DNA of 64,000 nucleotides, from NCBI RefSeq assembly GCF_044704955.1, contig NC_091999.1, positions 21,824,001 through 21,888,000 on the forward strand, in the 5' to 3' direction. Under the pieces are notes generated by a model. It saw only the letters and a program-made list of their open reading frames with translations, was not told the DNA's origin and ran no database searches. Source of the DNA: Pristiophorus japonicus (Eukaryota). Both the position numbers and the translations under genes were made by a program. The first letter of the stretch is position 1. Each line of letters starts with the position of its first letter. Below are positions 5,057 through 57,355 of this stretch, in pieces.

Positions 5057-5400
5057 ATGAATAAGGTGGATGAATTAACTGTGCAAATAGATGTTAACGG
5101 ATATGATATGATTGTGATTACGGAGACGTGGCTCCAGGATGATCAGGGCTGGGAACTCAACATCCATGGGTATTCAACATTCAGGAAGGAAAGAGTAAAA
5201 GGAAAAGGAGCTGGGGTAGCATTGCTGGTTAAAGAGGAGATTAATGCAATAGTTAGGAAGCACATCAGCTTGGATGATGTGGAATACATATGGGTAGAGC
5301 AACAGAACATCAAAGGGCAAAAAACGTTAGTGCGAGTTGTGTACAGACCTCCAAACAGTAGCAGTGATGTTGGGGAACGCATCAAACAGGAAATTATAGG
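5057..5400 (+). mobile_element. CR1 LINE APE-endonuclease fragment
   Basis: ITETWL, GVALLVK and VYRPPNS motifs; very similar to 43600-43935. Confidence 0.9.
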
Positions 5401-6119
5401 TTATCACTAGAATGATTTTCCGTAAATTCCATGCTCACCACATTAAAAATAGGATCGGAAAATAATGAATTGATCAACACGGTATCTAATGAAAACTATT
5501 TCCAAATAAAGACCATTCTGGACCATTCAGTCCCTTTATTCAGTACAGGATACACCGTGTTCCTGTTACCCGTGTCTGTTACATAGTCGGTCGCTATTAA
5601 AGTTAGCTGCAAGGATTTGGATATCGAGGTTTGCTGATCACATTATCGGTTCTGATTCACAAGTTTCTCTCATAAAACGCAGGTCTGAAGCGGGACGGAC
5701 CCACTTTCTTATGTGTCTCCGTCAACAACTCACTCCTGAATCATCAGTCAAGCGGACTTATTTTACAGCTAAATTTACAAACGGCTGTCGTCGGGTCACA
5801 GACTCAGGGGCAGTTATTGAAATGCAATGAGAGACAATTGTGTAATGTGAGGAGGATGATCTCATCTCCAGACCAAAAGTGTGTAGCTTTAGCCAAGTAC
5901 ACCGTAAATAGAATCACATTACCCATCTCCCGCACTCGGTTACATAGGTGATAACAATTCAGATTATAGGGGATACTTTATTGGTACAGATGCATGGATA
6001 GATAGCGGGAGATGGAGAAACAGAAACTGGCAGTATCTTTAGACCCTGATAATGTAATTCATTCTCAGAGATTCACATCCTCTGTGAAGGAGTGAGGAAA
6101 TAAAGGGATTTAATTTACA

Positions 6120-6332: not shown

Positions 6333-6378
6333 ATGAGGTCGGCGATTTCTCTCAGTCTGTTACTGGCTTTCTTTTCCC
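6333..6378 (+). CDS. IGHV: IgM VH leader exon ([15 protein letters not shown]-)
   Basis: ATG at 6333; 46-nt phase-1 exon; donor C|GTGAGT at 6379; hydrophobic signal peptide. Confidence 0.95.
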
Positions 6379-6505
6379 GTGAGTAGTTTTTATTGTCCAA
6401 TCTCTCACTGTTACTGTCTCAGTGTTAGTCTCTCTCTGGAATGTTACAGAGTCAGGAATCATTTCACCAGGATTGAATCTTCGGGTATTTTGATTATTTT
6501 TACAG

Positions 6506-6810
6506 GTGTCCAGTCGGATGTGGTGTTGACTCAGCCCGAGGCAGAGATCAGGATTCCCGGAAGCTCCCTGAGACTGACCTGTAAAACCAGCGGCTTCGAT
6601 CTTGGTGGCAGCTACATGTACTGGATCCGCCAGAATCCCGGACAGGGGCTGGAGTGGCTGGTTCAGTATTACAGTCCATCGAACAAGTATTACGCCGCAG
6701 GGATTGCGAGCCGATTTACTGCATCCAAAGACACTTCAAACAACATCTTTGCGCTGGACATGAAGAATCTGAAGAGCGAAGACACCGCCATCTATTACTG
6801 TGCAAGGTAC
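6506..6810 (+). CDS. IGHV: Shark IgM-type VH exon, open frame
   Basis: Acceptor TTTTACAG at 6505; [56 protein letters not shown] with canonical Cys and Trp. Confidence 0.97.
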
Positions 6811-6849
6811 CACAGCGAGAGGAACCAGGGCTGGACCTGTACAAGAACA
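6811..6849 (+). other. 23-bp-spacer recombination signal sequence (RSS) of VH
   Basis: Heptamer CACAGCG (6811-6817), 23-nt spacer, nonamer ACAAGAACA (6841-6849). Confidence 0.93.
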
Positions 6850-7256
6850 GATCGAGGGGGAATTCAACAACTGACATCATAACCTGATGGTCATTAATTG
6901 TGTCAAATGCAATGTTACCGGCAATGTACAGAACAAGACCATAAACCGCTTCTTACAAAACTAACACACTGAGAATTCAATGGTGAAAATATAACACACT
7001 AACCCATGTACTGAGGGGAGGTTTTGATTATGCTCCTGTTTAATGTTAACCGTGTCAGCAATTGCAGAGCTGGAGGTGATGCTCGATTCACTGTGCCTGG
7101 TACATGCAGGGAGCTGGTTAGAACTGTGTTCACTTTCAATTGTGCTATGTAAACTGTTGGCTAAATTCTAAATTTGATCAGAAGCGAATGTGTATTGGAA
7201 GTGAATGTCTATTTGACGTGAATGTTGAGAGTCAGTACTGAGCAGAGAGTGAGTGC

Positions 7257-7284
7257 AGTATGTGTGCGGGTTCCTGTCACTGTG
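7257..7284 (-). other. 12-bp-spacer RSS preceding the fused DJ
   Basis: Nonamer-like AGTATGTGT (7257-7265, 6/9 match to GGTTTTTGT), 12-nt spacer, perfect heptamer CACTGTG (7278-7284). Confidence 0.75.
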
Positions 7285-7352
7285 GGACTGCGGGAGTGGG
7301 TACATTGCCAAGGACTACTGGGGACAAGGGACCATGGTGACGGTGACTGCAG
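7285..7352 (+). CDS. IGHJ: Pre-joined D(-D)-JH segment (DCGSGYIAKDYWGQGTMVTVTA)
   Basis: D1-like GGACTGCGGGAGTGGGT directly after the heptamer, then about 11 junctional nt, then a trimmed J with WGQG; donor G|GTAAGG at 7353; no RSS between D and J. Confidence 0.85.
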
Positions 7353-7389
7353 GTAAGGAACATTCACTCATTCAGTAACTCTTGTATTT

Positions 7390-8640
7390 GTGTCTTTATT
7401 TTATATTTCTGTTTATTTTAATAATTATTTCGTTCACTGAAACTTAGGTTCAGTGGATTTTGTTTTGAGATTTTTTGCAATGTTCAATGTGATTCTGCTG
7501 CAAAGTGATTATAGAATTCAACTGTTTCTCCACAGAAAATGTTGTTGATGTGATTTGGTGTTTATTTGCTGACGAGACATGTGCCTGGGTTACTCTAAAT
7601 ACATTATGGTTTTTACACTGTTTGATGTTTCTGCAATGTTTAATTTTGGTGACCATTAATTGCTGCAGTTTTTCTGATCGAATGCAAACATTGTGTTTAA
7701 ATGTGTTTAAAAGAACATTGTAGGCACAAAACAGAAAGCTTAGCGACCAGTAAATATTCTTAAGGAATTTTAAGTTTTTTAATGAAAATTGGATTGTCAT
7801 CTACTGACCGAATGTTCCCGAAATCTCAGATTCAATACGTGAGCTGTTACTGTAATTAAGTACTGAACAATTAACATATTTCACGCTGGGACAAATTAAA
7901 TTAATATTATTAACATTATTATAATGTAGCAATATCATCACGTTTTATTAAATATGCTATAATATCAACATTAATGTATTTAACATGATCTGTCTAATCA
8001 CAATTCTGCTCTCATTATTTTATATTTCTGTTGAATTCAATCTTTAGTTATTTCAGTGTTAGGCGGGTTCAGTGATTTTGTAATGAGATTTTTTGCAATG
8101 ATACATTTGATTCTGTTGAAAGGGTTGATGAAATGAAGGATCTGCTCCATGAAAGGTTCTGTCGAGGGATTCCGCCCCTCAGTGATGTGATTTAGTGTTG
8201 ATCTGCTGAGGAGAGATGTGCCTGTGTTACTCAGAATACCTAGAATTTGTGAATCTAGGCGTTTCTACAATGTTCAATATCGGTGTCAGCGGGCAGCAGC
8301 AGGTTTGTGCTCGAATGCAAACACGATATGTGTTTGAAACTGTTTGAAAACAGTTTATAGGCAGAGAACAGGACGGGTTTAGAAATCAGAAATCATTGAA
8401 AGGTATTTTAACATAACAATTGTACAAGTGATAATTATATATTCAACTATTAATTTATGTTTACGATGCTGATATTTTATTGTGCGAAATGTAACTAATT
8501 GCCATCTGAATAATTAATGTGTTCAGTATGTAGTTGAATTAAATTAATATTAACAACCGATTATAATGCGATAATATCTCCCAGTGTTATTAAAATATGC
8601 TATAAGTCCAATGTTAATTTATTTAATATTATTCGCCTTC
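7390..8640 (+). repeat. Old ~620-bp tandem duplication at the start of the J-C intron
   Basis: Collinear similar blocks at 7395/8015, 7546/8183, 7678/8311 and 7893/8537. Confidence 0.75.
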
Positions 8641-10889: not shown

Positions 10890-11300
10890 CCATGGGGAGA
10901 CAGTAGAAGGAGCTTTAATCAGTTTCTAACCCGGTAGTACCTGCCCTGGGAGTGTTTGATGGGACAGGGCAGAAGGAGCTTTACTCTGTATCTAGCCCAT
11001 GCTATACGTGCCCTGGGAGTGTTTGATGGGACAGTGTAGAGGGAGTGTTACTCTGTATTTAGCCCATGCTCTATGTGCCCTAGGAGTGTTGATGGGACAG
11101 TGTAGATGGAGCTTTACTCTGTATCTTGACCCATGTTGTACCTGCCCTGAGAATGTTTAATGGGACACTGTAGAGGGAGCTTTACTCTGTACCTGTCTTG
11201 GGAGTGTTTGATGGGACAGTGAAGAGGGAGCTTTATTCTGCAACTAACCCGTGCTTTACCTTAAATGGCAGTGCTTGATGGGACATTGCAGAGATAGCTT
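10890..11300 (+). repeat. ~66-bp tandem satellite, about 6 copies
   Basis: Repeated CCCTGGGAGTGTTTGATGGGACAGTGTAGAGGGAGCTTTACTCTGTATC. Confidence 0.85.
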
Positions 11301-13285: not shown

Positions 13286-14044
13286 CAACAATGGGAATTG
13301 AAATGGGCCATTTAAGGAGAAACTTCCAATTAACCGGAATTTGGAATGGTATTTTATTCGGATTAATAATTGAGTGGCAGGGAGGAGGAAACTCAAGAGA
13401 CATGCATTCAATAGGATGGGATAGAGTCCAGATCACAGTGCGCTGAAGGACATCGCTCTCCCTCAAATACTGAGAAAGAAAGGGAGAGATTCAACTCAAT
13501 CGCGATTCATCTACAGACTGAATCTTAGAAACTAGACTATGGAAATGCTACCTGTTGAATTATGTGGCAGGCAAATTTAGAGGGTTTTTTGCTGACGTGC
13601 GAGGCAGGAATTCCGCTGTTACTTTGAAGTGCAGTCACTGTTGTTTTGTAGGGATACGCCGCAGGCAATGTGCACAGAGTAAATTTCCCCAAACTGCAAT
13701 AAAGGACCAAAAATGGTGCTGATTGAGAAATAAATGATGGCCGAAAAAGCAGGAACACGTCTCTGTTCTTCGATTGTATGATCCAATGAAGGATTCTTTA
13801 TTGACGAGTTATGTAAAAGTTCTTGTTGTGTAATGTGATAGAGCTCGGGGATAGAGAGGTGTGTTCCTGACAGGGGCATCGACAGGTGCTTATGACGGAA
13901 CTGACAGAAGCTCAAATGCCCGTGTAGTCTTTGATGGGGAAATGGTGGAATTAGTTTATTCTGCAGTCAAATTTCGAGTTGTTTATTTCTTTTATAAGCA
14001 CGGATTACAGAGTCTAACTTGTTCAATGGGCCATTCCTTCCCAG

Positions 14045-14344
14045 TAACACCGTCTCCCCCCACCCTCTACGCCCTGCTCTCCTCCTGTGAACAACCCAGC
14101 GCCGATGGCTCCATCACGTACGGCTGTTTGGCAATGGACTACTCCCACGACATCACCAGCCTTTCCTGGAAGAAAGATAAAGTGCCGATCACCACTGGAT
14201 TGAAGACCTACCCGCCAGTGCTCAACAAGAAGGGAACCTACACCTAGAGCAGCCAGTTAACCATCACCGAGTCAGAGGTGGGGAGCAGCACAATCAACTG
14301 CGAGGTTCGACGTGGTGTGTCGGTCTGGGCCATCACAATACCAG
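14045..14344 (+). pseudogene. IGHM: IgM Cmu1 exon with in-frame stop (TAG 14245-14247)
   Basis: Acceptor CCTTCCCAG at 14044; [55 protein letters not shown]; donor G|GTTAGT at 14345. The frame is otherwise open. Confidence 0.93.
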
Positions 14345-14423
14345 GTTAGTGGTGTGGGATACAGGGCAAACTGTGATAAGATGAGAAATTATGTTTAACT
14401 TGCATCGGAACTTGATCAGACAA

Positions 14424-14688
14424 CACTTAGAGTACTGTGTACAATTCTGCTCTCTGTATCATAGTTATAATGCTGTGCACAGTTCTAGTCTCCTTATCAC
14501 ATTTAGAATATTGTTTAAAGTTCTGGTTTCCATCTCGTACTTAGAATATTATGCATAATTCTGGTCTCCATATCACACTTAGAGTACTGTGCATGGTTCT
14601 GGTCCCCATATCGCACTTAGAATATTGTGCACAGTTCCGGGCTGCATATTACACTGAGAATTCTGTGCACAGTCCTGCTCTCTGTAAC
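14424..14688 (+). repeat. ~38-bp minisatellite (about 7 copies) derived from the CR1 HLEYCxQFWSP coding motif
   Basis: Units like CACTTAGAGTACTGTGCACAGTTCTGGTCTCCATATCA; compare the CR1 sequence CACCTGGAGTACTGCGTACAGTTTTGGTCTCC at ~59148 and ~62047. Confidence 0.75.
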
Positions 14689-14800: not shown

Positions 14801-15118
14801 ATCCTGAACGGGACATCGTTCCTCCAACTGTTCTCCTCACACTGAGTTCCACTGAACAAATCACCAGCAGCAGATATGCAAGCGCCGTGTGTTCAATCAT
14901 CGATTTCAGGCCAAAGTCACTGACTGTGAATTGGCTGAAGAGTGGACAACTCATGGATTCGGGCTTCGTCACCTCTCCCGTCTTTGAGGTGAACGGGAAC
15001 TTCTCGACGGCCAGTCGGCTGACAGTCCCCGCCGAGGAATGGTTCACCGGCTCGGTCTACACCTGCCAGGTCACTCATCAAGGGGTCATGCAAAACCATA
15101 ACTTCAGCAGATCTCAGG
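14801..15118 (+). CDS. IGHM: IgM Cmu2 exon
   Basis: Acceptor TTGAAG at 14800; [35 protein letters not shown]; donor G|GTAAGA at 15119; 318 nt, phase 1-1. Confidence 0.95.
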
Positions 15119-17078: not shown

Positions 17079-17387
17079 TGGATGTCCCATGCAGCGATTC
17101 AAAAATCACTCTTCGCTCACCATCACTGGAACAGATATTACTGGAGGCAACGGTGACCTTAACCTGCGTCGTGTCAGACGCTCCTTATGGGCTCACTGTG
17201 ACCTGGACTCGAGAAAAGGAGGCTTTGAAATCAGAAATTGCCGTCCAACCGGGAGAGGATCCCAACAGCGTGATCAGCAACTTAAAAATCTCGACACAAG
17301 ACTGGCTGAGTGGGGATAAATTCTACTGCGTGGTGAGCCATCAGGATATGCCGACACCGATCAGAGAATCCATCCACAAGGAGAAGG
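17079..17387 (+). CDS. IGHM: IgM Cmu3 exon
   Basis: Acceptor TTTTGCAG at 17078; [36 protein letters not shown]; donor G|GTGAGC at 17388. Confidence 0.96.
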
Positions 17388-18286: not shown

Positions 18287-18678
18287 CGAAAGATCCACGG
18301 GAACCAGCCGTGTCTGTCCTCCTGCCCTCGGCAGAAGAAGTCTCCGCTCAGAGGTTGGTCAGCCTCACCTGCTTAGTGAGAGGTTTCTCCCCCCGAGAGA
18401 TCTTCGTCAAATGGACCGTGAATGACAAGCCGGTGGATTCGGGCAACTACAAGAACACCGAGGTGATGGCGGAGAACGGCAGCAGATCCTTCTTCATGTA
18501 CAGCCTGCTATCCATTGCAGCCGAGGAGTGGGCCAGCGGCGCTTCTTACTCCTGTGTGGTGGGACATGAAGCGATCCCCTTGAAGATCACCAACAGAACC
18601 GTCAATAAATCCAGCGGTAAACCCAGTTTCGTCAACATTTCCCTTATTCTGATGGACACCATCAATTCTTGTCAATGA
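18287..18678 (+). CDS. IGHM: IgM Cmu4 exon with secretory tailpiece
   Basis: Acceptor CTACAG at 18286; [48 protein letters not shown] (N-glycan site, penultimate Cys). Internal donor G|GTAAA at 18617 serves the membrane form. Confidence 0.97.
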
Positions 18679-21312: not shown

Positions 21313-21440
21313 ATTCCTCAGACCACATCTGGAATGAAGACTATGAGGACGAGAGCGGCAACATCTGGACAACCGCTTCCACATTCATCATCCTGTTCTT
21401 CCTGAGCATTTCCTACAGCACTGCCGTCACTCTGGTGAAG
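21313..21440 (+). CDS. IGHM: IgM TM1 exon
   Basis: Acceptor CCCCGTAG at 21312; [43 protein letters not shown] (CART motif); donor AAG|GTTGGA at 21441. Confidence 0.95.
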
Positions 21441-21580: not shown

Positions 21581-21589
21581 CTCAAGTGA
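21581..21589 (+). CDS. IGHM: IgM TM2 exon (LK*)
   Basis: Acceptor CTTTTGCAG at 21580, then CTC AAG TGA; AATAAA at 21651 and ~21832. Confidence 0.85.
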   Translation, partial: LK

Positions 21590-22924: not shown

Positions 22925-23455
22925 GCCCCCAATAGGGTGAGCCTGTGCTGGCGTAATAGGGTGAGCCTATGCTGGCCCAATAGGATGAGCCAGGCTGGCC
23001 CAATAGGGTGAGCCCATGCTGGCCCAATAGGGTGAGCCCGAGCTGTCCTAATAGGGTGAGCCCGGGCTAGCCCAATAGCGTGAGCCCATGCTGGCCCAAT
23101 CGGGTGAGCCCATGCTGGCCCAATAGGGTGAGCCGGGTTGGTCCAATAGGGCGAGCCCAGGCTGGCTCAATCGGGTGAGCCCAGGCTGGCTCAATAGGAT
23201 GAGCCAGGCTGGCCCAATAGGGTGAGCCCATGCTGGTCCAATAGGTTGTGCCTGTGCTAGTCCAATTGGATGAGCCCAGGCAGTCCCAATAGGGTGAGCC
23301 CATGCTGGCCCAATAGGATGAGCCAGTGTTGGCCCAATAGGGTGAGCTCAGGCTGGCCCAATAGTGTGAGCCGGGCTGGCCCAATAGGGCGAGCCCGGGC
23401 TGGCCCAATAGGGCGAGCCCGGGCTGGCCCAATAGGTTGAGCCGGGCTGGCCCAG
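22925..23455 (+). repeat. 25-bp minisatellite, about 21 copies (GCTGGCCCAATAGGGTGAGCCCATG)
   Basis: Direct inspection; most units retain CCAAT. Confidence 0.95.
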
Positions 23456-23559
23456 GGTCACCATACAACAGTCAGCACAACTAGACTCCCTGTCAGGGGC
23501 CACTGACCTGGGCACAAACATGTGTTCAATCTAACTGTCAGACACGCTGAAGCCCCGCC

Positions 23560-23870
23560 CATCCATTATCCCTGCCGAAAGGGCCGCGCAAACACCGCCA
23601 TACTCGCCCTGACCAAGATGGCGGCCACTGAGCCCGCTCCCCTGGGAAGCTCACTGACTGGGCCTGGAACCGGGCTGTGATTCGGTTCTTGGGGACGAGC
23701 CCGGGTGTGTGTAAAGCAGATGGTGCGGTGTGTTGCCTCTCGGGCCTGGGCCCGCACTCGGGCTGCGTGTCCCGCCTGGGGTTTATTAACGCAGGAATCG
23801 ATTGATTCTGCACTTTTTGACAGACAGGCGACAAGCCCCGCCCCATCCGGGCACGAATCATTCCATGCAT
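23560..23870. promoter_or_regulatory. CpG-rich promoter-like segment with a YY1 site
   Basis: CpG-dense; CAAGATGGCGGC at 23614-23625; GC boxes CCCCGCCC at ~23553 and ~23836. Confidence 0.5.
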
Positions 23871-23892
23871 GTGGTGCAGAGAAATAAAACTC

Positions 23893-24656
23893 GGGTAAGG
23901 CACTTGGGCTGGGGGAGGCGTGCACTGGGACTGGGGTAAGGCACTCGGACTGCAGTAATGCACTTTGGATGGGGGAGGCTTGCACTGGAACTAGGGTAAG
24001 GCACTTCGGCTGGGGGAGGCATACACTTGGACTGGCTAGGGCACTTCAGCTGGGGGAGGCGTGCACTGGGACTGGGGTAAGGCACTTGGGCTGGGGGAGG
24101 CATGCACTGGGACTGGGTTAAGGCACTTTAGCTGGGGTGGGGGCATGCACTTGGAATGAGGTAAGGCACTTCGGCTGGGAGATGCATGCACTGGGACTGG
24201 GGTAAGGCACTTCGGCTGGGGGAGGCATGCACTGGGACTGGTATAAAGCACTCCAGCTGGGGGAAGCCTGCACTTGGACTGGGATAAGTCACTTCGTCTG
24301 GTGGGGGCATGCACTCGGAGTGGGATAATGCACTTCGGCTGGAGGAGACTTCCACTGGGACTGGGGTAAGGCACGTTGGCTGCGGGAGGCGTGTACTGCG
24401 ACTGGGGTAAGGCACTTTGGCTGGGGGAGGCATATACTGGGGTAAGGCACTTCGCCTGTGGGAGGCATATACTGGGACTGGGGTAAGGCACTTTTGCTGG
24501 GGGAGGCATGCACTGGGTCTGTTGTAAGGCACTTTGGCACTGGATGCATGCACTGGATCGGGTTAAGGCACTTTGGCCGGGGAGGCATATACTAGGACTG
24601 GAGTAAGGCACTTCGGCTGGGGAGGGATGCACTGCGACTGGAGCAAGGCACTTTGG
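23893..24656 (+). repeat. 41-bp G-rich minisatellite, about 18 copies (GGGACTGGGGTAAGGCACTTCGGCTGGGGGAGGCATGCACT)
   Basis: TAAGGCAC recurs at 41-nt spacing (for example 23896 and 23937). Confidence 0.95.
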
Positions 24657-25060
24657 CTTGCAGTCGCTGTCTTCTGGGAGTTCTGCCTCTGTTGTTTCAG
24701 GAAGTCAAAGTGGATCAAGTTACAATTTGCAAAGTCAGTGAGACGTTGGGATGGGTGGTTTCAGTTACACATTCGAGTGAAACCTCAGGCTGTGGCTTAT
24801 CCTCCAAAGGATCCAATCATGCAAAAAGGTTGGAGCATGGCGGCCATTTTTGCAGTACAAATAAGCACATCCTTTATTAAATCGCTCCCTCCCTCCACCC
24901 ATCTCTGACCCCCTGTCTCACCCACCGCGCATGCTCAGCTCACACTGCCTGGCTGATTGACGGCAGCTCCCGCCCAATAGGGAGAGCAGTTGTGGAGCTG
25001 GTGGTCTGGGTGGGCGGTTAGTCTTCCAACCAATCGGCGTGTGCAAGGGGTGCGGCTTGC

Positions 25061-38650: not shown

Positions 38651-39678
38651 TCACTTGTGAACTCGCAGGTGTCTCAGCAGGTTGTATGGGGCAGTGAATC
38701 CCTTCCAACAGATGGAAAGGTGAATGGCCTCTCCCCAGTGCGAACCCGCTGGTGTGTCAGCAGGTTGGATTTCTGAGTGAATCGCTTCCCACACTCTGAG
38801 CAAGTGAACGGCCTCTCCCCAGTGTGAACTCGCTGGTGTGTCAGCAGGTTGTATGGAGCAGTAAATCGCTTCCCACAGACGGAGCAAGTGAACGGCCTCT
38901 CCCCAGTGTGAGTGCATTGGTGTTTCCTCAGGTCATTTCTGCTTTTAAAGCTCTTCTCACAGTCAGAACATTTAAACGGTTTCTTATTGGTGTGAACAAG
39001 TTGGTGTGCCAGTAGGTTGGATGAACAAGTGAATCCCTTCCCACACACGGACACAGGTGAATGGCCACTCCCCAGTGTGAACTGGCTGGTGTGCCAGTAG
39101 GCTGGATGAATCACTGAATCCCTTCCCACACATGGAGCAGATGAACTGCCTCTCCCCGGTATGTATTCGCTGGTGTCTCAGCAGGTGGGATGGCCGAGTG
39201 AATCCTTTCCCATACTCTGAACAGGTGAACAGCCTCTCCCCAGTGTGAATGCGCTTGTGAATTTCCAGCTCAGAACGGGTAACTGAATCCCTTCCCACAG
39301 TCTCCACATTCCCACGGTTTCTCCATGCTGCTGGTATCTCTCCAGATTGGATGATCAGTTGAAGCCTCGCCCACACACAATACGTTTACAAATTCTCTGC
39401 GCTGTGAATGGTGCGATGTTTTTTCAGGCTGTGTGACTGGTTAAAGCTCTTTCCAAAGGCAGTGCCATGGAACACTCTCACTCGGCTGTGTGTGTCTCAG
39501 TGCTTTTGCAGTCACACTGATGTTTGGAATATTTGCCTGCAGGCAGAAGAGACAAACATTTCTCCTTCCACATTCAAAGGCCAATGATATTCATGTTGCG
39601 GTGGATCAAGTGACTCTGTGAGATCTTGGTGATGTTTGGTTCCAGTTTCCCATCTGCAAATCTTCCCCTTCTAATCCC
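38651..39678 (-). pseudogene. C2H2 zinc-finger pseudogene (about 8 fingers, frameshifted)
   Basis: ATG at 39326 ([14 protein letters not shown]) followed by a frameshift; TGERPF linkers across three frames; ends HLRVHK*. Confidence 0.88.
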
Positions 39679-55330: not shown

Positions 55331-56596
55331 CACAACAATTCAATTCTATAACAATCGATCGCAATAATTTAACTCAATACTTTAAATTCTTAAGTCCAAC
55401 TGTGTCAGCATGCTGCAGATAACTGGAGATAATGTTGTCTTAACTGCTGGATCTTTTGCTATTCCATCAACCTCTTATCCAACTGGAACTGGCATTGTCT
55501 AATATGGTAGTCTTTGGCTACGGCATAGTCCAGAGACACAAGTCTGCATTTTCTTCACCATGCATCAACAATGTTAGAAGTACGTAAAACACTGGTCTTC
55601 CTGTGGCAAGCACAAACCACTAGTCTCTGAACTCTTCTTTTTCAAACATAATATTTCTAATCTAAACATTCTATGATGAAAATATCCACGGCCAGTTGTT
55701 TGCAAACACCAACTGCTGCTCAGTGAAATCTCTCTCTAATGATAACAACCACATTTTCCCCGATATGCAATGAACTAAACATGAACACCTTTCAGAAGCT
55801 GAATTAACCGAGTTCCCTATGCCAACACCCCTCTCATCTTCCATTCACTTCAACTGAAAGGAAAACGCCAGATTGTATCAGTCGGGATTTGAAAGATATT
55901 TACAACAGATGCTAGATATTCTTCGAGTTAGCATTGTTCTCTATTCTGTCTAATCGAGGAGTTTGATAACAGGCTTTCTCCTGTGAATGTAGAGCTGGAA
56001 TCTTGGGCCGGAATGTATTTACTTGTTCATCTTGTTGACTCTAAACCGTTGGCAATTATTTGATGTGATCTGTATTTTCTTAAATACATTTGCTGAATAA
56101 ATTCAAATTTAAATTGAACCCAGGTTTGCAGGCGTGAAGCTCCATTCACACATCGAAGGTGAGAGAGATGCTGTGGGGCACACGCTAAGTCCAGTATCTG
56201 AAAGTGATTCACAGACTGGGTTTTGTGTTTAGTGATCCGGGGCATGTTACCGACACCTTCCCACAATTCCAAGGGGAGGAGAGGTACTCTGGAAGGTATG
56301 GGGAACTGGCATTTGTCCACGAGAGTAACCAAAGGTATGAGAACTGAAATAATCCAGAGTTAGAAAGGAGAAAAGGCCCCAAAATGGTGGAGTCAGTAAC
56401 AGGACATCAATTAGTCTCCTCTTATCTTGGAATATTAAATGTCGACACACGCTGTTATTGAAACATCAAAATATTATATTCCAGCCCAGTTATAGGGGTT
56501 ATTATCATCAGAAACAAACTTCAACTGTCGGAATGGACACGATTCAGTCGGGATGTGATTAACAGCAGCAATGATAGCAGAATCCAACCACTGCAG

Positions 56597-57355
56597 TCAC
56601 TTGTGAACTCGCTGGTGTGTCAGCAGGCGGGATGACACAGTGAATCCCTTCCCACACACGGAGCAGATGAACGGCCTCTCCCCAGTGTGAACTCGCTGGT
56701 GTGCCAGCAGATTGGATGACACAGTGAATCCCTTCCCACACACGGAGCAGATGAACGGCCTCTCCCCAGTGTGAACTCGCTGGTGTGCCAGCAGGTGGGA
56801 TGACCGAGTGAATCGCTTCCCACACACGGAGCAGGTGAACGGCCTCTCCCCAGTGTGAACTCGCTGGTGTTTGAGCAGATTGGATGACAGAGTCAATCCT
56901 TTCCCACACTCCGAGCAGGTGAACGGCCTCTCCCCGGTGTGAACTCGCTGGTGTGCCAGCAGGTTGGATGAAACAGTGAATCCCTTCCCACACACGGAGC
57001 AGATGAACGGCCTCTCTCTAGTGTGAACTCGCTGGTGACTCAGCGGGCTGGATGACACAGTGAATCCCTTCCCGCACTCAGAGCAGGTAAACGGCCTCTC
57101 CCCAGTGTGAACTCGCTGGTGTGCCAGCAGGTCGGATGACTGAATGAATCCTTTCCCACATTCAGGGCAGGTGAACGGCCTCTCCCCAGTGTGAACAAGC
57201 TGGTGTTTCACCAGGCTGGATGACTGAGTGAATGGCTTCCCACACACGGGGCAGGTGAACGGCTTCTCCCCAGTGTGAATGTGTTGATGAATTTGCAGCG
57301 CAGACGGGTAGCTGAATCCCTTCTCACAGTCCCCACATTTCCACGGTTTCTCCGT
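56597..57355 (-). CDS. Intact 9-finger C2H2 ZNF array (252 codons) beginning at ACG instead of ATG; no KRAB seen
   Basis: Open frame from ACG GAG AAA CCG TGG AAA TGT (57355) to HQRVHK* (56597); all nine CxxC..H..H fingers intact; exon acceptor at 57719. Confidence 0.7.

What the first reader, a model, noticed from the sequence alone, without database searches (positions are those of the whole stretch)
14045..14344. Single nonsense codon in Cmu1 of an otherwise intact IgM gene: pseudogene or CH1-skipped heavy chain
Seen: TAG at 14245-14247 is the only lesion found in the L, V, DJ, Cmu1-4, tailpiece, TM1 and TM2 exons. All splice sites are canonical, and J and Cmu2 are both phase 1, so skipping Cmu1 keeps the frame. 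Known: the recalled horn shark sequence has TYTQSSQ here, so this would be a CAG>TAG change. CH1 is the domain that binds BiP and light chain, and its loss underlies camelid heavy-chain-only IgG. Inference: any protein from this locus would be VDJ-Cmu2-3-4, a candidate independent route to light-chain-free Ig. Against this, the VH keeps the conventional light-chain interface (G44-L45-W47, W103) and the Cmu1 Cys that pairs with light chain, so recent pseudogenisation is at least as likely.
Basis: partly seen in the sequence, partly recalled or inferred. Interest (0 to 1): 0.7.

Follow-up and report, generated by a model that had tools for sequence, protein, structure and literature searches.

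The report
Recently broken shark antibody gene copy
One of a shark's dozens of near-identical IgM antibody gene copies carries a stop codon in its first constant exon, and it is most likely an ordinary copy in early decay, not a new light-chain-free antibody.

Summary
The in-frame TAG at 14245-14247 in Cmu1 is in the assembly, and every other exon is open with canonical splice sites. It occurs at 1 of 63 matching sites in the genome. Two sister clusters, 99.3-99.4% identical over 17 kb, are intact and carry CAG, so the stop is young and private. Nothing specific points to a CH1-skipped antibody. The Cmu1 splice sites equal the sisters' sites, the V-DJ region is identical to an intact sister's, and the V keeps the light-chain interface. 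The copy's private changes fall on coding DNA at the intron rate (6 of 1738 versus 40 of 14085 sites). Other clusters carry lone lesions in Cmu2, Cmu3, Cmu4 or TM, and Cmu1 is no more relaxed than Cmu2 or Cmu4. 'Skipping keeps the frame' holds for Cmu1, Cmu2 and Cmu3 alike. The gene is not fully intact: Cmu1 also lost a conserved proline, 3.7 kb upstream is deleted, and V is still unjoined. Reads neither confirmed the T nor tested skipping. This scan noted similar decaying IgM copies elsewhere in this genome. Verdict: likely a young pseudogene.

The parts
5396..5403 (.). Junction of a deletion of about 3.7 kb in this copy relative to sister C23:17.68, 930 bp upstream of the ATG; a LINE endonuclease fragment ends at it
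6333..6378 (+). Leader exon, open
6506..6810 (+). VH exon, open, two cysteines, conventional light-chain interface (I37, G44, L45, W47; Kabat numbers recalled); identical to intact sister C23:17.68
6811..6849 (+). V 23-RSS (V not yet joined)
7257..7284 (-). D1 12-RSS; its nonamer differs at one more position than in conventional clusters, a change shared by the 7-copy subfamily
7285..7352 (+). Germline-joined D1-(D2)J segment, W103 kept, phase-1 GT donor; same junction in 7 copies
14045..14344 (+). Cmu1 exon with intact AG/GT sites identical to the two nearest sisters; keeps Cys14, the likely light-chain link (inferred)
14146..14148 (+). Private Pro34>His in Cmu1; aligns to the BC-loop proline of solved CH1 domains
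14245..14247 (+). Private nonsense codon TAG (CAG in sisters), 97 nt before the exon end and upstream of the second intradomain Cys (codon 85)
14801..15118 (+). Cmu2 exon, open; one private Thr>Met change that also occurs in other clusters
17079..17387 (+). Cmu3 exon, open
18287..18678 (+). Cmu4 with secretory tailpiece, open; internal TM donor after 18616
21313..21440 (+). TM1 exon, open
21581..21589 (+). TM2 coding part, open

Best explanation
This is a young duplicate of a shark IgM gene cluster with a private stop codon in Cmu1, and it is likely a null copy in early decay whose transcripts would keep Cmu1 and be destroyed. Shown: the cluster lies in a duplicated block of at least 47 kb, has intact near-identical sisters, and gained CAG>TAG and Pro34>His after splitting from them. 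Inferred: if a B cell joins V to the pre-fused DJ, splicing would include Cmu1, because its sites are unchanged; the stop lies 97 nt before the exon end with further junctions downstream, so nonsense-mediated decay would remove the mRNA. Any fragment made would end before the second Cmu1 cysteine, could not fold or reach the surface, and the cell would rely on another cluster. Redundancy among dozens of clusters likely lets such nulls drift. The null may be fixed or polymorphic.
For: TAG at 1 of 63 sites. Sisters C23:27.76 and C23:17.68 are 99.3% and 99.4% identical over 17.1 kb and open in all 10 features scored; the three form a supported clade in the Cmu1 tree (99/95). Window-private substitutions: 6 of 1738 coding and 40 of 14085 non-coding sites (Fisher p 0.63), so no depletion; sister C23:27.76 has 0 of 1738 and 31 of 14085. 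No private substitution or indel lies in 13367-14044 or in the Cmu1-Cmu2 intron. Window 6500-7420 is 100% identical to C23:17.68. Among 41 clusters, others carry one lesion elsewhere: Cmu3 frameshift (C23:34.63), Cmu4 stop (C23:38.58), TM1 frameshift (C3501), TM2 acceptor (C4133), Cmu2 acceptor (C23:66.14), Cmu2 frameshift with V missing (C23:56.62); 3 of the 7 subfamily copies are hit, each in a different exon. Cmu1 is broken in 23 of 71 clusters by at least 5 separate events; of the other 22, the 16 whose V or other exons were found are also broken there, and 6 were not resolved. pN/pS among 26 open clusters: V 1.18, Cmu1 0.45, Cmu2 0.48, Cmu3 0.24, Cmu4 0.44. One contig of spliced run X8 joins the frameshifted Cmu1 of cluster C23:13.88 to Cmu2, so a broken Cmu1 can be kept in RNA. 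A stop in CH1 elicits NMD in mouse IgH (PMC7072976, passages). Nurse shark has IgM pseudogenes (PMC5192425, PMC2435157, passages).
Against: Both radical changes (Pro34>His and the stop) lie in Cmu1, while the four other private coding changes are two synonymous and two mild missense changes seen in other clusters, and L, V and DJ have none. That is the pattern expected if only Cmu1 were released, although chance gives it easily (P 0.61 for a second Cmu1 hit; P 0.23 for 2 or fewer missense among 4). The loss-of-constraint test is underpowered (window versus sisters, p 0.16). Some lone single-base indels in other clusters may be assembly errors. The C23:13.88 contig is a single contig from a cluster with no V within 19 kb. 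NMD was not measured in shark.
Confidence: 0.82

Rival explanations
1. Unselected leak: the copy is a pseudogene, but a minor share of its transcripts skip Cmu1, escape NMD and yield traces of a VDJ-Cmu2-3-4 chain.
For: Skipping keeps the frame. 5-30% of nonsense changes alter splicing in human data (PMC8464065, abstract). Normal mice make J-hinge transcripts without CH1 (PMC2150980, passages). Crocodilian IgD skips stop-bearing C exons (PMC4279169, passage). The change is CAGA>TAGA, as in the SMN2 exon 7 enhancer loss (recalled; not scored, no matrix available). The Cmu1 donor in this lineage departs from consensus at +3, unlike conventional clusters.
Against: The stop lies mid-exon and both splice sites equal those of intact sisters. 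The one aberrant Cmu1 splice seen in this family used a cryptic donor 36 nt downstream and did not skip the exon (one X8 contig matching C23:14.35). The locus must first rearrange through a 12-RSS with an extra nonamer change.
Confidence: 0.1
2. The T is an assembly error and the cluster is an intact, partly germline-joined IgM gene.
For: No T-bearing contig was laid at 14245 in DNA run X4 (C in 894.9 of 894.9 depth). The sisters are nearly identical, a setting prone to mis-assembly.
Against: Three other private sites (14147, 15089, 15151) are missing from X4 in the same way, which points to contigs collapsing paralogues. The copy has 46 private substitutions spread over 15.8 kb and its own deletion, like its sisters' 31 and 24. 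Collapse would pull a base towards the majority C, not to a unique T (inference).
Confidence: 0.05
3. A selected heavy-chain-only IgM: the stop and NMD remove Cmu1-containing mRNA, skipping supplies a CH1-less chain that leaves the ER without light chain, and selection keeps V and Cmu2-4.
For: Both damaging changes are in Cmu1 and the rest is open. The fused DJ encodes a cysteine in the J frame. A CH1-less IgM cluster exists in ratfish (PMC3149040, passage).
Against: No donor mutation as in camelids (G>A at the 5' splice site; PMC6167435, passage) and no exon deletion as in ratfish. V is identical to a Cmu1-intact sister and keeps G44/L45/W47/W103. The DJ cysteine is shared with intact sisters and V has no extra cysteine to pair with it. 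The stop is in a single copy. Cmu1 decay is not above chance. In mice, removing CH1 without V adaptation gave a deficient antigen-specific response (PMC6167435, passages).
Confidence: 0.03

Closest known systems
Elasmobranch IgM minicluster pseudogenes (nurse shark G2C and groups 6-8; PMC2435157, PMC5192425, passages)
   Same: A complete L-V-D-J-Cmu1-4-sec-TM cluster in a multi-copy family, disabled while close sisters stay intact.
   Different: A much larger family here (71 Cmu1 exons compared); the lesions of the nurse shark pseudogenes could not be read (Lee 2008 not held).
Partly germline-joined IgH clusters of horned shark and little skate (PMC2193153, PMC5192425, passages)
   Same: Segments fused in inherited DNA with RSS loss and a junction shared between copies.
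   Different: Here V is free and D1-(D2)J is fused (V-DDJ). The passages read list other germline forms; V-DDJ appears there as a somatic intermediate (PMC2435157).
Camelid heavy-chain-only IgG2/IgG3 (PMC6167435, PMC3149040)
   Same: The CH1 exon is still in the gene, and skipping it would keep the frame.
   Different: Camelids lost the CH1 donor and use adapted VHH genes; this gene keeps its donor and a conventional VH.
Ratfish CH1-less IgM cluster, and shark IgNAR (PMC3149040, passages)
   Same: Cartilaginous fish cluster genes can give light-chain-free antibodies.
   Different: CH1 is lost from those genes; here the exon is complete apart from two point changes and V is not single-domain.
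Crocodilian IgD with stop-bearing C exons that are skipped (PMC4279169, passage)
   Same: An in-frame stop in a phase-symmetric Ig constant exon.
   Different: Skipping was seen in transcripts there; none is shown here.

Membership tests
Elasmobranch IgM minicluster | L, V, D/J, Cmu1-4, secretory tailpiece and TM exons in one cluster | tested here: met
   Cmu1 of the intact sister matches CH1 domains of solved antibodies
Elasmobranch IgM minicluster | RSS pair that allows rearrangement (V 23, D 12) | tested here: met
   activity of the variant nonamer not tested
Partly germline-joined IgH cluster | Coding joint with lost RSS, shared by several genomic copies | tested here: met
   same D1-(D2)J junction in 7 copies; unjoined D1 with 22-RSS in related clusters
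Heavy-chain-only antibody genes (criteria of PMC3149040, section 4) | CH1 absent from the gene or forced out by splice-site loss | tested here: not met
   exon complete, both sites identical to intact sisters
Heavy-chain-only antibody genes (criteria of PMC3149040, section 4) | CH1 absent from the mRNA (J spliced to Cmu2) | tested here: inconclusive
   no RNA from this copy identified; loose-end table cut to 24 of 106 rows
Heavy-chain-only antibody genes (criteria of PMC3149040, section 4) | [quoted passage not shown] | tested here: not met
   I37, G44, L45, W47, W103 kept; V identical to a Cmu1-intact sister
Heavy-chain-only antibody genes (criteria of PMC3149040, section 4) | Non-canonical disulfide in V (optional) | tested here: not met
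   V has two cysteines; one DJ-encoded cysteine has no partner and is shared with sisters
Heavy-chain-only antibody genes (criteria of PMC3149040, section 4) | Diverse single-V repertoire that binds antigen; secreted dimer without light chain | not testable with these tools
   needs repertoire sequencing and serum protein work
Duplicated Ig pseudogene | ORF-breaking lesion absent from intact sisters | tested here: met
Duplicated Ig pseudogene | Loss of purifying selection after the lesion | tested here: inconclusive
   coding rate equals intron rate (p 0.63), but only 6 coding changes
Duplicated Ig pseudogene | No functional product | not testable with these tools
   needs locus-specific RNA and protein data

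The most novel reading that the evidence does not exclude
A nascent heavy-chain-only IgM in a true shark: a mid-exon stop plus NMD acts as a filter that leaves only Cmu1-skipped mRNA, so a one-step V-to-DJ cluster makes a light-chain-free VDJ-Cmu2-3-4 receptor before any V adaptation. It would be an independent origin caught at its first step, by a route (stop plus skipping) unlike camelid donor loss or ratfish exon deletion.
Probability: 0.04. Interest if true: 0.7.

Novelty: new member of a known kind. Interest (0 to 1): 0.12.

Why it matters
As read here it matters little: it is one more decaying copy in a large shark IgM family, useful only as a young example of gene birth and death and as a natural reporter allele for NMD and nonsense-associated skipping in shark B cells. 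If the skipped chain were real and secreted, it would show how heavy-chain-only antibodies can start from a conventional gene, and the intact 99.4%-identical sister would be an ideal control.

Tried and rejected
Reads: no RNA holder was listed for the stretch. Laying contigs could not confirm or refute the T. No J-Cmu2 loose end appeared among the 24 of 106 rows shown, while J-Cmu1 ends appeared in runs X5 (23 contigs) and X6 (2 contigs) of other organisms; the table is cut and those runs are not this locus, so this is not counted as evidence. In spliced run X8 all 5 contigs at 14246 carry the Leu-codon base and none the base of the window's Gln lineage; contigs drop rare variants, so this is not counted either. 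Stop readthrough was considered and set aside: the TAG-A context is not a known leaky one (recalled), and Pro34>His would remain. A somatic lymphocyte origin of the DJ joint was rejected because 7 copies share it. Flags corrected before counting: 'RSS' flags in 15 clusters are germline V-D joints (checked on one cluster of each type); the V '+1' of C23:54.89 is an extra end base; the TM2 '-1' shared by 8 clusters is probably a variant exon. Fifteen of 41 clusters (the window and broken or incomplete ones) were left out of the pN/pS count. C23:37.29, whose Cmu1 has a stop and an altered donor, was checked as a better candidate and is also broken in Cmu2 and Cmu4. Papers not held: Kokubu 1988 (two papers), Lee 2008. 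The supplement of PMC3149040, which covers CH1 loss, could not be read. PMC3964593 main text had none of the terms. Searches for a CH1-skipped shark IgM transcript and in earlier scan notes showed none in their listings; the library lacks most subscription papers.

Full report
Observation. The window holds one shark IgM cluster on the + strand. The Cmu1 exon (14045-14344) has an in-frame TAG at 14245-14247, codon 67. All other exons are open with canonical sites. Cmu1, Cmu2 and Cmu3 each start and end in phase 1, so skipping any of them keeps the frame; this is the usual Ig exon design and says nothing special about Cmu1. V is not joined. It ends in a 23-RSS at 6811 and faces a 12-RSS at 7284 in front of a fused D1-(D2)J segment. 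Related clusters show the free D1 with 12/22 RSS, and conventional V-D1-D2-J clusters lie on other contigs. Seven copies share the window's junction, so it is inherited, not somatic.

How common and how old. A genome search returned 40 scored Cmu1 matches of 120 candidates. A pattern count found 63 sites: TAG 1, CAG 31, CTG 29, other 2 (the exact TAG context once). Two sisters match the window at 99.3% and 99.4% over 17.1 kb and are open in all 10 features scored. The duplicated block runs at least 47 kb. The three copies form a supported clade among 71 Cmu1 exons. Polarised with four outgroup copies, the window has 46 private substitutions in 15,823 sites; the sisters have 31 and 24. The stop is one of the 46.

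Is Cmu1 singled out? Six private changes are coding: the stop, Pro34>His in Cmu1, Thr>Met in Cmu2, synonymous changes in Cmu3 and Cmu4, and Val>Ile in the tailpiece. Pro34 aligns to the BC-loop proline of solved CH1 domains, described as a cis-proline in CH1 (PMC12227049, passage). It is not significant: given the stop, a second Cmu1 hit among five has P 0.61. Coding and non-coding rates are equal (0.35% and 0.28%, p 0.63), while sister C23:27.76 has no coding change against 31 non-coding ones; the contrast between window and sisters is not significant (p 0.16). Among 26 open clusters pN/pS is 0.45 for Cmu1, 0.48 for Cmu2, 0.24 for Cmu3 and 0.44 for Cmu4 (a simple count of distinct variants, not a tree-based estimate). 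Lone lesions in other clusters fall in Cmu2, Cmu3, Cmu4, TM1 and TM2; some single-base indels may be assembly errors. Cmu1 is broken in 23 of 71 clusters by at least five events, and the 16 of the other 22 that could be examined further are broken elsewhere too.

Is there a skipping mechanism? The Cmu1 acceptor and donor equal those of the intact sisters. No private substitution or indel lies in the 678 bases before the exon or in the Cmu1-Cmu2 intron. Camelids skip CH1 through a G>A change in the donor (PMC6167435, passage), and the ratfish IgM cluster lost CH1 (PMC3149040, passage); neither holds here. Nonsense-associated skipping remains possible: 5-30% of nonsense changes alter splicing in human data (PMC8464065, abstract), normal mice make some J-hinge transcripts (PMC2150980, passages), and crocodilian IgD skips stop-bearing exons (PMC4279169, passage). 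I could not score splicing enhancers.

Is V adapted? No. Window 6500-7420 is 100% identical to the Cmu1-intact sister C23:17.68. V keeps I37, G44, L45, W47 and W103 (Kabat numbers recalled) and has only the two canonical cysteines. Of the criteria for heavy-chain-only antibodies in PMC3149040 (section 4 read whole), those testable from DNA are not met.

Reads. Only assembled contigs were available. DNA run X4 showed C at 14245 in all laid depth, and also the sister base at three other private sites, so rare-copy alleles are being dropped and the test is inconclusive. Run X8, with the same species label as the DNA runs, has contigs that cross Cmu1-Cmu2 and Cmu2-Cmu3 junctions, so it is spliced RNA. 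One junction motif matches 12 clusters of the conventional lineage. One matches only C23:13.88, whose Cmu1 has a 19-base frameshifting deletion and is nonetheless spliced to Cmu2. One matches broken cluster C23:14.35 and uses a cryptic donor 36 bases into the intron. These are single contigs of other copies. None could be assigned to the window's copy.

Mechanism. Shown: a young duplicate with a private stop, a private loss of a structural proline and a private 3.7 kb upstream deletion, beside intact sisters. Inferred: after a V-to-DJ join the mRNA would include Cmu1; the stop is 97 bases before the exon end with more junctions downstream, the setting in which a CH1 stop triggers NMD in mouse IgH (PMC7072976, passages). 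A translated fragment would lack the second Cmu1 cysteine and all later domains, so no receptor would form. Shark B cells carry non-productive rearrangements beside one functional one (PMC2435157, passages), so such a null likely costs little.

Comparison and novelty. It is a member of the elasmobranch IgM miniclusters and of the partly germline-joined clusters known from horned shark and skate (PMC2193153, PMC5192425, passages), and likely a pseudogene of the kind known in nurse shark. It is not filed as a heavy-chain-only gene. Earlier notes of this scan reached similar readings for other copies in this genome; they are leads, not support. Searches listed no report of a stop-driven CH1-skipped shark IgM, but key subscription-era papers were not held.

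Verdict. Observation confirmed in the assembly, with corrections. Young null copy 0.82; unselected leak of skipped transcripts 0.10; assembly error 0.05; selected heavy-chain-only IgM 0.03. Interest 0.12.

Noticed in passing
window 5396-5403: About 3.7 kb present in sister C23:17.68 is missing here, 930 bp upstream of the ATG; roughly 1.8 kb of the lost DNA is flank shared by both sisters. Any effect on the promoter is unknown.
   Followed up: partly
window 14245-14247 and paralogues: The codon is Leu (CTG) at 29 of 63 sites, aligning to a leucine of solved CH1 domains, and Gln (CAG) at 31 sites in one supported clade, so the path was likely Leu>Gln>stop; the whole clade may have a less stable Cmu1.
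   Followed up: partly
window 7257-7352; L031-L037, L043-L052, L056-L059: V-free, D1-(D2)J-fused clusters occur with several different junctions, suggesting repeated germline joining; this form is not among the germline forms listed in the passages read.
   Followed up: partly
window 7257-7265: The D1 12-RSS nonamer of the 7-copy subfamily has one more departure than that of conventional clusters; it may lower rearrangement.
   Followed up: partly
window 7285-7352: The fused DJ encodes a cysteine in the J frame, shared by all 7 copies, with no partner cysteine in V.
   Followed up: no
window 14345-14350 and paralogues: Most clusters on contig C23 have a Cmu1 donor with T at +3, while conventional clusters have the consensus; many C23 clusters also have a second GT donor 36 nt downstream, which this copy lacks.
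   Followed up: partly
L151/L183/L184 (C23:13.88) and L105/L106/L185 (C23:14.35): Two broken clusters with no V found within about 19 kb upstream match spliced contigs of run X8, so dead constant-region copies appear to be transcribed.
   Followed up: partly
L154, L180-L182 (C23:37.29): Cluster whose Cmu1 has a stop and an altered donor; it also has stops in Cmu2 and Cmu4, so it is dead.
   Followed up: yes
window about 38970-39380 and 56570-57200, minus strand: C2H2 zinc-finger-like repeats, with a stop and a frame change in the first stretch, seen in six-frame translation.
   Followed up: no
window 10903-11300, 14423-14682, 22928-24658: Minisatellite-like arrays in the J-Cmu1 intron, the Cmu1-Cmu2 intron and downstream of TM2.
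   Followed up: no
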